Part shown: piece after piece, positions 18,143 through 18,467 of the stretch
Layout: the number at the start of each line of letters is the position of its first letter
Position numbering within the stretch: the stretch's first letter is position 1
DNA from: Candidatus Kaiserbacteria bacterium
GTDB lineage: Bacteria > Patescibacteriota > Minisyncoccia > Phycocordibacterales > UBA2100
NCBI GenBank assembly: GCA_016217925.1
Contig: JACRFK010000003.1
Span: forward strand, 207,656 to 271,655
DNA: 64,000 nucleotides
Direction of reading: 5' to 3'
Position numbers and translations under genes: made by a program
Notes under the pieces: generated by a model
Told to the model about the DNA's origin: nothing
Seen by the model: the letters and a program-made list of their open reading frames with translations, nothing else
Databases searched by the model: none

Positions 18143-18217
18143 TTATTTCTTTGCTTCCTTGTGCTTCGTGTGCGCTTTGCACCACAAGCAGCTCTGGGAA
18201 ACCCACGGTTTTCCCAT
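18143..18217 (-). pseudogene. remnant of native rpmG 3' end (24-codon ORF MGKPWVSQSCLWCKAHTKHKEAKK)
   Basis: Last 16 codons match intact rpmG (CKWCKAHTKHKEAKK) with 7 synonymous and 1 non-synonymous differences. Remnant uses GC-rich codons; intact copy uses AT-rich codons. Confidence 0.5.
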
Positions 18218-18308
18218 TCCTTCCTCCACGGGAAAACAGATGTTTTCCCGACCCCTTTCTTCTGCAAACGGTTCTTGCTGCAGCTTGTTACGTGTAATCG
18301 AACAAACT

Positions 18309-18467
18309 TTATTTCTTGGCTTCCTTATGTTTAGTATGTGCTTTACACCATTTGCAGTACTTCTTGAGCTCAATTTTGCGCGTGACAAGCTTGCGATTCT
18401 TGCGCGACCAATAATTGGTACGGTCGCATTTTGAGCAAGCTAGTTTAAAAAGTTGATCTTGGGACAT
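18309..18467 (-). CDS. rpmG: 50S ribosomal protein L33
   Basis: 52 aa MSQDQLFKLACSKCDRTNYWSRKNRKLVTRKIELKKYCKWCKAHTKHKEAKK: C..C...NY..KN......LELKKYC.WC..HT.H.E.K zinc-ribbon L33 signature. Below ORF-track cutoff. AT-rich relative to genome. Confidence 0.8.
   Translation of the reverse strand: MSQDQLFKLACSKCDRTNYWSRKNRKLVTRKIELKKYCKWCKAHTKHKEAKK

What the first reader, a model, noticed from the sequence alone, without database searches (positions are those of the whole stretch)
18143..18467. rpmG (L33, missed by the ORF track) appears to be an AT-rich xenologous replacement; a GC-rich 3' remnant of the native copy persists downstream
A 52-codon zinc-ribbon L33 gene lies at 18309..18467 on the minus strand, in a roughly 500-nt AT-rich island. 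About 90 nt downstream a 24-codon ORF ends in CLWCKAHTKHKEAKK*, whereas the intact gene ends in CKWCKAHTKHKEAKK*. There are 7 synonymous and 1 non-synonymous differences. The remnant uses GCG/CAC/ACG/AAG, the genome-typical GC-rich codons, where the intact gene uses GCA/CAT/ACT/AAA. This pattern fits replacement of the native gene by a horizontally acquired homolog through recombination at the 3' end, next to tRNA-Trp and a low-GC gene (16975..17973).
Basis: partly seen in the sequence, partly recalled or inferred. Interest (0 to 1): 0.7.

Follow-up and report, generated by a model that had tools for sequence, protein, structure and literature searches.

The report
Mini mobile element duplicating rpmG's tail
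The repeated end of the ribosomal protein L33 gene is real. It was made by a roughly 170-bp protein-less mobile element that brings its own copy of the gene's last 13 codons and pushes the native copy downstream; the same element family sits at tRNA and ribosomal-protein gene ends in many Patescibacteria and I found no description of it.

Summary
rpmG (18309..18467, minus strand) is intact, and a 42-nt copy of its tail lies 166 nt downstream (18143..18184), differing at 7 synonymous sites.

The downstream copy is the displaced native tail, and the working tail is foreign. But the gene was not replaced as a whole:
- Its middle (codons 21-36) is native: GC3 0.76, 98% identical to a close relative.
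- The L33 protein is lineage-typical.

The cause is a small structured element, which I call B. It consists of a replacement tail, a spacer, an inverted copy of the target site, a conserved two-hairpin core and a linker.

- A nearly identical copy sits at the same rpmG position in a lineage whose rpmG body is only about 80% identical. Close relatives have empty sites.
- The core motif occurs in at least 120 metagenome contigs. Half follow tRNA genes (26 anticodons). Others sit at the ends of rpsI, rplK and uvrC, or at the 5' ends of two genes. All have the same direct-repeat and inverted-copy anatomy.
- It matches no Rfam family, carries no recombinase and has no viral copy.

A second small insertion replaced the gene's first 20 codons in the same way.

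Best reading: a non-autonomous, site-specific integrative mini-element. Its enzyme and mechanism are unknown.

The parts
18309..18467 (-). Intact rpmG (L33, 52 codons). It is a mosaic of an element-borne head, a native middle and an element-borne tail.
   Evidence: ORF and translation. PF00471 homologues. GC3 is 0.35/0.76/0.33 for head, middle and tail, with different nearest relatives for each.
18360..18407 (-). Native middle of rpmG (codons 21-36)
   Evidence: The codon 21-37 block has GC3 0.76 and is 98% identical to L014 and 94% to L169; coordinates.
18346..18359 (-). Target site inside rpmG: TACTGCAAATGGTG, the codons for Y-C-K-W-C. CTGCA/TGCAG form a short palindrome. The left boundary of the element lies here.
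   Evidence: WIN and L200 switch from about 80% to about 100% identity at this point. The complement of the inverted copy starts a modal 7 nt before the start of the direct repeat.
18309..18350 (-). DR1: the element-borne replacement tail (WCKAHTKHKEAKK*), AT-shifted
   Evidence: 42/42 identical to the L200 tail; its next-best matches include the element-borne tails of L169 (37/42) and L019 (36/42). Across 16 loci the DR2-to-DR1 changes are GC>AT 88 against AT>GC 28.
18273..18308 (-). Element spacer after the stop codon
   Evidence: Conserved with L200, L169 and L014.
18262..18272 (-). X': an inverted copy of the target site (ACCGTTTGCAG is the reverse complement of CTGCAAACGGT)
   Evidence: Inverted repeat I4, 11 nt, 91% complementary to 18347-18357. 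The predicted DNA fold closes this stem. An equivalent is present in the rpmG, tRNA, rpsI, glycosyltransferase and rnhA instances examined, but is weak (about 5 nt) at rplK.
18196..18255 (-). Conserved core of element B: GGGGTC, hairpin H1 (18230-18249), GTGGAGGAAGGAAT, hairpin H3 (18196-18215)
   Evidence: One copy in the window. At least 120 metagenome contigs carry the core motif. H1 shows compensatory changes at 5 pairs. No Rfam match.
18185..18195 (-). Linker: a degenerate copy of the left half of the target with the central bases changed (CTGCTTG against CTGCAAA)
   Evidence: tRNA instances are analogous (GTTCGAT becomes GTGAGAT or GTTCT).
18143..18184 (-). DR2: the displaced native rpmG tail (the remnant)
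   Evidence: Best matches are native tails of element-free relatives, 39/42. In L003 and L169 the remnant is followed by the sequence that follows the stop codon in element-free relatives.
18468..18536 (-). Second insertion (element A): two hairpins (18511-18536 and 18490-18510) plus a 22-nt AT-rich leader in front of the working ATG
   Evidence: The same arrangement lies at the rpmG 5' end in L018, L035, L056 and L066.
18408..18467 (-). Replacement head of rpmG (codons 1-20), AT-shifted
   Evidence: GC3 0.35 against 0.76 for the middle. Relatives L018 and L056 carry 54-nt native head remnants that differ almost only synonymously.
18537..18565 (-). Native promoter-like box (GTATAGTGTCGCGC, 18552-18565) and the 15-nt remnant of the native rpmG start (ATGTCACAGGATCAA, 18537-18551)
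   Evidence: Matches the sequence directly upstream of, and at the start of, rpmG in L001, L011, L015 and L169; L014 differs by one base in the box.
17990..18063 (-). tRNA-Trp, the conserved downstream neighbour of rpmG. It is not part of the element.
   Evidence: Synteny is clpB, tRNA-Tyr, pilin, rpmG, tRNA-Trp, miaA.

Best explanation
**What it is.** The repeat was made by insertion of a small, protein-less mobile element (B, about 166 bp from repeat to repeat here) into the hairpin-like sequence CTGCAAA|TGGTGCA inside rpmG. The element brings, in order:
- its own copy of the last 13 codons plus the stop codon, so the gene stays intact;
- a spacer;
- an inverted copy of the target site;
- a conserved core of two similar hairpins;
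- a linker that looks like the left half of the target with its centre altered.

The host's own tail is left just downstream as an untranslated remnant.

**Shown**
- The anatomy described above.
- The element-borne origin of the working tail.
- Transfer of the same element between diverged lineages.
- Empty sites in close relatives.
- The same architecture at many other gene ends.

**Inferred**
- Integration is conservative and site-specific. The crossover lies at the left edge of the repeat. A constant 7-nt offset separates the two junction types, as expected for staggered cuts.
- A recombinase encoded elsewhere carries it out.
- The stem formed by the replacement tail region and its inverted copy may be the element's attachment site in a folded single strand, as in CTX phage or integron attC sites.

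A second, unrelated small insertion did the same to the first 20 codons. Together the two account for the AT-rich island.
For: **Anatomy**
- A 49-nt direct repeat with spacing 166; an inverted copy, 11 nt and 91% complementary; two hairpins.

**Mobility**
- WIN and L200 are about 100% identical from TACTGCAAATGG to GCTTGTGGTGCAA. Their flanks differ: gene middle 80%, head 72%, different remnants.
- Element-free relatives L013, L015, L011, L010, L001 and L007 have the native GC-rich tail directly followed by the native downstream sequence.
- The remnant matches those native tails best (39/42). The working tail's top match is the element-borne L200 tail (42/42), and L169 (37) and L019 (36) are also among its best.

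**Family**
- At least 120 metagenome contigs carry the core motif.
- 66 of 131 instances follow a same-strand tRNA gene, covering 26 anticodons.
- Other instances lie at the 3' ends of rpsI, rplK and uvrC, and at the 5' ends of opposite-strand glycosyltransferase and RNase H genes.
- Where both could be scored, each has a target-matched direct repeat and a target-matched inverted copy.
- The offset between the start of the inverted copy's complement and the start of the repeat has its mode at 7 nt.

**Coding signal**
- Across 16 rpmG pairs there are 98 synonymous against 24 non-synonymous codon differences.
- The working tail has lower GC3 than the remnant in 13 of 16 pairs.
- Changes from remnant to working tail are GC>AT 88 against AT>GC 28.

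**Structure**
- Hairpin H1 keeps pairing through compensatory changes at 5 pairs.
- As single-stranded DNA the element folds better than all 200 shuffles, z = -3.85.

**Precedent**
- Tyrosine integrases of streptococcal ICEs integrate into the 3' ends of rpmG, rpsI, rplL and tRNA genes (PMC4701971).
Against: - **No enzyme.** No recombinase or transposase lies inside any copy; the sequence between the repeat and the inverted copy is at most 294 nt. None was found among 33 window ORFs tested. No protein family recurs next to the element; the only recurrent non-syntenic one is a LAGLIDADG-like ORF in 7 of 120 loci.
- **No free form.** No excised or circular form was observed.
- **Too many targets.** One nearly invariant core sits at more than 30 different targets, each with matching repeat and inverted copy. 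That is hard to reconcile with a classical integrase, whose attachment site is fixed. The way new targets are acquired is unexplained.
- **RNA or DNA unresolved.** G-T and A-C mismatches in H1 are equally rare (13 and 9).
- **Recombination not excluded.** Spread by transformation and homologous recombination is possible; DprA is present in the window.
Confidence: 0.7

Rival explanations
1. One reading: the whole rpmG gene was replaced by a horizontally acquired AT-rich homologue through recombination at the 3' end, leaving a native 3' remnant.
For: The working head and tail are AT-shifted and the remnant is GC-rich. The tail is identical to that of a different lineage.
Against: - The gene's middle is native: GC3 0.76, 98% identical to L014.
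- The protein is 94-98% identical to close relatives.
- Identity with L200 starts exactly at the repeat edge and ends at the linker.
- A conserved structured element lies between the copies and recurs at tRNA genes.
- Homologous replacement would leave no remnant.
Confidence: 0.04
2. The same insertion allele spreads between related genomes only by natural transformation and homologous recombination in the conserved flanks. No dedicated recombinase is involved. The element is a passive hitch-hiker that arose once per target.
For: DprA is present in the window. rpmG and tRNA flanks are highly conserved. No recombinase was found. Repeats at tRNA genes often extend into genome-specific trailer sequence, which implies very close donors.
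Against: - The shared identity between WIN and L200 begins and ends at the repeat edges, not at scattered points in the flanks.
- The junction offset is a constant 7 nt in unrelated targets.
- More than 30 targets share a nearly identical core, which requires repeated new insertions.
Confidence: 0.13
3. The element works as RNA. It could be a structured 3'-UTR or small RNA, or an intron-like segment whose removal joins the gene body to the downstream tail. In the second case both tails would be kept by selection on the protein.
For: H1 shows compensatory changes. Differences between the two tails are mostly synonymous. The inverted copy could pair with either tail region.
Against: - No Rfam family matches.
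- The upstream copy alone gives an intact gene or tRNA (66 tRNAs called intact).
- A terminator-like hairpin often separates the gene from the core.
- In five or six loci the element lies upstream of an opposite-strand gene, so it is not in that gene's transcript.
- Remnants carry start-codon and stop-codon losses and atypical residues.
- There is no G-U strand bias.
Confidence: 0.08
4. A tandem duplication of the gene end arose in place and the spare copy decayed. No mobile element is involved.
For: Working tail and remnant in one genome share lineage-specific residues, for example RKQTV, EMKK and W-D.
Against: - The working tail is identical to one in another lineage while the remnants differ.
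- In the window the working copy, not the unconstrained remnant, carries most of the changes (my count).
- The spacer is a conserved element found at unrelated genes.
Confidence: 0.03
5. The 24-codon ORF (18143..18217), which has a Shine-Dalgarno-like GGAGG and an ATG, encodes an independent small zinc-knuckle peptide.
For: GGAGGAAGGAATG precedes an open frame ending in the L33 tail in WIN, L169 and L200.
Against: - The GGAGG and the start position belong to the conserved core, which mostly lies next to tRNA genes with no ORF.
- In other rpmG loci the start is ATT, the frame differs, or a nested insert breaks it.
Confidence: 0.02

Closest known systems
Site-specific integrative elements that regenerate the 3' end of their target gene. 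Examples: streptococcal ICEs and IMEs with tyrosine integrases at rpmG, rpsI, rplL and tRNA genes (PMC4701971); from my own knowledge, phage 21 and e14 in icd.
   Same: The target is the 3' end of a conserved gene, including rpmG itself. The element supplies a substitute end that differs mostly at synonymous sites. The native end is left as a direct repeat at the far side.
   Different: Those elements are kilobases long and encode their integrase. This one is about 110-320 bp (median 165) and encodes no protein. It has a conserved two-hairpin core plus an inverted copy of the target, and one core type serves more than 30 targets.
Non-autonomous derivatives of integrative elements (cis-mobilisable elements, CIMEs, in Streptococcus; from my own knowledge)
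   Same: Attachment-site repeats flank a segment that lacks recombination genes.
   Different: CIMEs are decay products of an identifiable parent element at one site. No parent was found here, and the core is conserved and structured, not decayed.
Elements that integrate as folded single strands: CTX phage (inverted attP halves form a dif-like stem) and integron cassettes (attC). From my own knowledge.
   Same: An inverted copy of the target next to a direct copy can form a stem that mimics the double-stranded target, with a mismatched centre. In the integrated state three target-like sites alternate in orientation. Hairpin structure is conserved through compensatory changes.
   Different: The targets are not dif or attI. 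No Xer or IntI link has been shown. Single-strand integration is my inference and is untested.
MITEs, REP/BIME elements and IS200/IS605-derived palindromic elements
   Same: Size, lack of coding capacity, hairpins and many copies.
   Different: Those have fixed terminal repeats or none, and short or no target duplications. Here the flanking repeats are 12-49 nt, are copies of the target gene's end, and keep the gene intact.
Mitochondrial mobile ORFs that carry a replacement C-terminal gene segment and leave the native one downstream (for example Allomyces atp6; from my own knowledge)
   Same: A hybrid gene with a foreign end followed by a native pseudo-end.
   Different: Those carry an endonuclease ORF. 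This element carries no ORF.

Membership tests
Ribosomal protein L33 (rpmG, PF00471) | Sequence match to the family and the four-cysteine zinc ribbon | tested here: met
   Homologues carry PF00471 and reach 94-98% identity. CxxC...CxxC is present.
Xenologous gene displacement | The whole gene groups with a foreign lineage and not with close relatives | tested here: not met
   The protein is closest to syntenic relatives. The gene's middle is 98% identical to L014. Only the head and tail are foreign.
Integrative element with 3'-end regeneration (ICE, IME or prophage type) | Direct repeats made of the target gene's end, with the element-borne copy completing the gene | tested here: met
Integrative element with 3'-end regeneration (ICE, IME or prophage type) | An integrase encoded within the element | tested here: not met
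   The sequence between the repeat and the inverted copy is at most 294 nt in 106 instances. There is no ORF in the window copy.
Integrative element with 3'-end regeneration (ICE, IME or prophage type) | Excision to a circle and re-integration | not testable with these tools
   Needs read-level or experimental data.
MITE | Element-specific terminal inverted repeats and a short fixed target duplication | tested here: not met
   The inverted sequences are copies of each target. Repeats are 12-49 nt and target-specific.
IS200/IS605-type palindromic element | Subterminal hairpins, no target duplication, insertion 3' of a fixed 4-5-nt motif | tested here: not met
   Hairpins are present, but long target-derived repeats flank every copy and no common 4-5-nt motif precedes them.
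Folded single-strand integrating elements (CTX phage, integron attC) | Inverted half-sites that fold into a target-like stem with an unpaired centre | tested here: inconclusive
   The geometry fits: a stem between the tail region and the inverted copy, with altered central bases in the linker. The recombining form is unknown.
Folded single-strand integrating elements (CTX phage, integron attC) | Use of XerCD at dif or IntI at attI | tested here: not met
   The targets are tRNA T-arms and coding sequences. No such recombinase was found among the ORFs tested.
Self-splicing intron or known ribozyme | Match to a described catalytic RNA family | tested here: not met
   No Rfam hit other than tRNA at E up to 10.
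Diversity-generating retroelement (template and variable repeat) | Differences confined to adenines of the template copy | tested here: not met
   The spectrum is dominated by G>A (49) and C>T (24). Changes at A account for 24 of 143.

The most novel reading that the evidence does not exclude
Element B may be a new kind of protein-less integrating element whose attachment site is built from its target. It would keep an inverted and a direct copy of the target, fold as a single strand into a mimic of the double-stranded site, and be inserted by a structure-reading host or trans-acting recombinase with a 7-nt stagger. That would explain how one conserved 60-nt core occupies more than 30 different tRNA and protein-gene ends. 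If the target copies are made or corrected during insertion, this would be a self-retargeting system.
Probability: 0.22. Interest if true: 0.85.

Novelty: new variant of a known kind. Interest (0 to 1): 0.6.

Why it matters
- **For annotation.** Small duplicated gene ends next to tRNA and ribosomal-protein genes in Patescibacteria are footprints of a mobile element. They are neither pseudogenes nor small proteins. AT-rich ends of conserved genes need not mean that the gene was transferred.
- **For mobile-element biology.** A widespread element of about 165 bp with no protein keeps its target genes intact. It carries a target-matched inverted copy and uses one conserved core at dozens of sites. 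This poses a clear question about how the sites are recognised and how new targets are acquired, in organisms with very small genomes and few known mobile elements.
- **For evolution.** The element moves short coding segments between lineages. This creates mosaic essential genes on a scale of 40-60 nt, which gene-level phylogenies miss.

Tried and rejected
- **Exact-protein lookup of the window L33:** not on record.
- **Rfam:** whole window at gathering thresholds, and the element region plus six related loci at permissive thresholds. Only tRNAs and chance hits.
- **Viral contigs:** no hit to the core. Three hits to hairpin H3 alone were unrelated.
- **Autonomous version:** no instance has more than 294 nt between the repeat and the inverted copy. 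Clustering of 924 flanking ORFs gave no recurrent recombinase. It gave only syntenic genes and a LAGLIDADG-like ORF in 7 loci.
- **Pfam on window ORFs:** 33 ORFs tested, no recombinase or transposase.
- **G-U against A-C strand asymmetry in H1:** 13 against 9, so uninformative on RNA or DNA.
- **Diversity-generating retroelement:** rejected from the substitution spectrum.
- **Conserved small ORF:** rejected.
- **Target-site duplication made at insertion:** rejected as the origin of the window's repeat, because the working tail is shared with another lineage while the remnants differ. It may still apply to the first insertion at a new target.
- **Literature:** searches on Patescibacteria tRNA-associated elements, miniature integrative elements and the core sequence strings found no description. 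The paper on group I introns in Patescibacteria tRNA genes concerns the anticodon loop and is unrelated.
- **A correction of my own:** I first read the L118 target as rplL; Pfam shows it is rplK.

Full report
**1. Observation**

On the minus strand the window carries an intact 52-codon L33 gene at 18309..18467. Database homologues carry PF00471 and reach 94% identity. Species-representative genomes of Kaiserbacteria-like Patescibacteria reach 98%.

A copy of the gene's last 13 codons and stop codon lies at 18143..18184, 166 nt downstream of its counterpart. Over these 42 nt the two copies differ at 7 positions, all synonymous. The repeat finder reports a 49-nt direct repeat at 80% identity. 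The working tail has GC3 0.35 and the downstream copy 0.71. The window as a whole has GC 0.55, and the stretch 18143-18551 has GC 0.45. tRNA-Trp follows at 17990..18063.

**2. Synteny and presence or absence**

Relatives share the order clpB, tRNA-Tyr, T4SS-type pilin, rpmG, tRNA-Trp, miaA.

- In L001, L007, L010, L011, L013 and L015 the gene ends in GC-rich codons and no second tail follows.
- In L003-L006, L019, L024, L025, L032, L037, L169, L200 and others a second tail is present.

The distribution is patchy among close relatives.

**3. What lies between the two tails**

The spacer is not random sequence. In every rpmG case it contains four parts:

- a stretch that is the reverse complement of the gene sequence around TACTGCAAATGGTGCA (11 to 17 nt);
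- a conserved core: GGGGTC, hairpin H1, GTGGAGGAAGG, sometimes an extra hairpin, then hairpin H3;
- a linker that resembles the left half of the target with its central bases changed (CTGCTTG or CTGCTGG in place of CTGCAAA);
- the second tail.

In the window these parts are X' (18262-18272), the core (18196-18255), the linker (18185-18195) and DR2 (18143-18184). As single-stranded DNA the region is predicted to form the long stem between the gene and X', plus H1 and H3. It folds better than all 200 shuffles, z = -3.85. H1 keeps its pairing through compensatory changes at five pairs across 39 sequences.

**4. The working tail is carried by the element and moves between lineages**

The window gene is a mosaic:

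| Segment | Codons | GC3 |
|---|---|---|
| Head | 1-20 | 0.35 |
| Middle | 21-37 | 0.76 |
| Tail | 38-52 | 0.33 |

- The middle is 98% identical to L014 and 94% to L169.
- The 45-nt tail is 100% identical to that of L200, whose middle is only 80% identical and whose protein differs at several positions.
- In the alignment, WIN and L200 are nearly identical from TACTGCAAATGG through the tail, spacer, X', core and linker to GCTTGTGGTGCAA. On both sides they are as diverged as unrelated lineages, and their remnants differ.
- The window's remnant matches best the working tails of element-free relatives (39/42). The window's working tail matches the element-borne L200 tail best (42/42), and L169 (37/42) and L019 (36/42) are also among its top matches.

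So the remnant is the native tail, and the working tail arrived with the element.

**5. Pattern across rpmG loci**

Sixteen distinct pairs show 98 synonymous and 24 non-synonymous codon differences. This is far from the roughly 70% non-synonymous share expected for random changes; that expectation is my own estimate. The working tail has lower GC3 than the remnant in 13 of 16 pairs. Changes from remnant to working tail are GC-to-AT 88 times and AT-to-GC 28 times.

Remnants, not working tails, carry the atypical residues and a lost stop codon (L019, L183, L200). The remnant is therefore a slowly decaying pseudo-tail.

The AT shift of the carried tail fits the general AT-richness of mobile DNA. 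It could also reflect deamination, because this segment lies in the loop of the long stem. Both explanations are inferences.

**6. The element is a large family with many targets**

Only 19 of 131 instances lie after rpmG. Sixty-six follow a same-strand tRNA gene, covering 26 anticodons.

Other instances, with the proteins checked against Pfam, lie at:

- the 3' ends of rpsI (S9), rplK (L11) and uvrC;
- the 5' ends of a family-4 glycosyltransferase gene and an RNase H gene, both on the opposite strand.

The anatomy is the same throughout. An intact gene end comes first. An inverted copy of the target follows; at tRNA genes it ends in GGAATCGAAC, the complement of the T-loop. Then come the core, a linker with an altered loop (GTTCGAT becomes GTGAGAT or GTTCT), and a direct-repeat remnant.

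- The repeat starts a modal 7 nt after the point where the complement of the inverted copy starts, in unrelated targets.
- The distance from repeat to repeat has a median of 165 nt.
- In the opposite-strand cases the duplicated piece is the gene's 5' end with its start codon, and the remnant has lost the ATG. The element therefore does not need to lie in the target's transcript.

**7. What was not found**

- No Rfam family matches.
- No instance has more than 294 nt of extra sequence inside it.
- No recombinase recurs next to the element.
- None was found among 33 ORFs of the window. The window does encode DprA, a transformation protein.
- Full-text searches, including the core sequence itself, gave no description.
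- There is a precedent for the targets. Tyrosine integrases of streptococcal conjugative elements integrate into the 3' ends of rpmG, rpsI, rplL and tRNA genes (PMC4701971).

**8. Explanation**

Shown:
- A small protein-less element sits in rpmG.
- It supplies the gene's working tail and displaced the native tail.
- It moved between lineages and belongs to a family that occupies many gene ends.

Inferred:
- Insertion is site-specific. Three things point that way: the fixed boundaries in the WIN/L200 comparison, the constant 7-nt offset between the two junction types, and the hairpin-like nature of the targets (tRNA T-arm; CTGCA-AATGG-TGCAG in rpmG; CCACA-TGG in rpsI).
- A trans-acting enzyme is needed and remains unidentified.
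- The alternating direct, inverted and direct copies of the target, with an altered centre in the last, resemble the integrated state of elements that recombine as folded single strands (CTX phage, integron cassettes). I offer this as the most economical mechanism, at low confidence.

Unexplained: how one conserved core acquired matching repeats and inverted copies at more than 30 targets.

**9. The 5' end**

Upstream of the working ATG lie a 22-nt AT-rich leader, two hairpins (18490-18536), and then ATGTCACAGGATCAA (18537-18551) directly after GTATAGTGTCGCGC. This matches the native promoter-like box and gene start of L001, L011, L015 and L169; L014 differs by one base in the box.

L018 and L056 keep 54 nt of the native head in the same position, and L035 and L066 keep 15 and 7 nt. 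Head and head remnant again differ almost only synonymously, and the working head is AT-shifted. The two hairpins belong to a repeat family also found elsewhere, for example at window 39779-39830.

Two independent small insertions therefore replaced both ends of this 159-nt gene. Together they produce the AT-rich island.

**10. Verdict**

The underlying object is a new variant of a known kind. It is an integrative element that regenerates its target's end, but it is miniature, structured, protein-less and multi-target. As far as the tools show, it is undescribed.

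Noticed in passing
window 18468-18565 (minus strand); L018, L035, L056, L066 around 1380-1500: A second small insertion at the 5' end of rpmG. The order is native promoter-like box, remnant of the native head (7 to 54 nt), two CCCGAC...GTCGGG hairpins, a short AT-rich leader, then an AT-shifted replacement head (codons 1-20).
   Followed up: partly
window 39779-39830: Another copy of the same double hairpin (TCCCGAC..GTCGGGACTCCGAC..GTCGGAG). The last five codons and the stop codon of the pth-like gene (39811..40641, minus strand) lie inside it.
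   Followed up: no
window 16975-17973 (minus strand): A 332-aa ORF between tRNA-Trp and miaA has GC 0.49 and no Pfam match. In relatives this slot is empty (L001, L007) or holds other cargo: a helicase plus a serine recombinase in L003, and glyoxalase and NUDIX genes in L004. It looks like an insertion hot spot.
   Followed up: partly
L024 1690-1940; L037 and L098; L104, L111, L133, L171: A nested insert of about 55 nt (CGACCAAT, a hairpin, then GAAGTACTCNTGNGGTG) sits inside hairpin H1 or H3 of element B, always just before TTTCC. L024 carries three copies. It looks like a still smaller mobile element that targets B.
   Followed up: no
L001 4335-4425; L164 about 330-450: Another conserved structured motif lies downstream of tRNA genes (GGAGYGATGTTTC, a hairpin, GAAACCGCGAGGYGGGGTCGCGGAAA, a hairpin, ATCTGTGACC). 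It has no Rfam match. In L164 it lies inside element B, between the repeat and the inverted copy.
   Followed up: no
L001 2632-3435; L011, L018, L019 and L205 just downstream of rpmG; 7 of 120 metagenome loci: Free-standing ORFs of about 220 aa with a helix-turn-helix N-terminus lie next to rpmG or tRNA genes, several within 150-450 nt of element B. The L001 gene is recorded as LAGLIDADG_3; a Pfam scan of the L205 member gave only weak helix-turn-helix matches below the curated cut-off. A link to the element is possible but not shown.
   Followed up: partly
L014 1600-2860: In the relative closest to the window in the rpmG middle, the element-borne tail, spacer and inverted copy are kept. The core and the native remnant are replaced by a 358-aa opposite-strand ORF. 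This is a rearranged copy of element B.
   Followed up: partly
upstream of rpmG in L001, L003, L011, L013, L015, L025, L032: A TATAGTG box lies only 7-10 nt before the rpmG start codon with no Shine-Dalgarno sequence. This suggests a leaderless mRNA in this lineage.
   Followed up: no
L105 (metagenome contig): Both the working rpmG tail and its remnant encode W-D in place of W-C at the last zinc-ligand cysteine.
   Followed up: no
L113: The remnant after element B appears to belong to a different tRNA 3' end (CTCACCTCTTCCGCCA) from the intact upstream tRNA-Val. It may be a trace of insertion at a non-cognate tRNA.
   Followed up: no
window 6914-7780: A DprA homologue (DNA-processing protein of natural transformation) is encoded in the window.
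   Followed up: no
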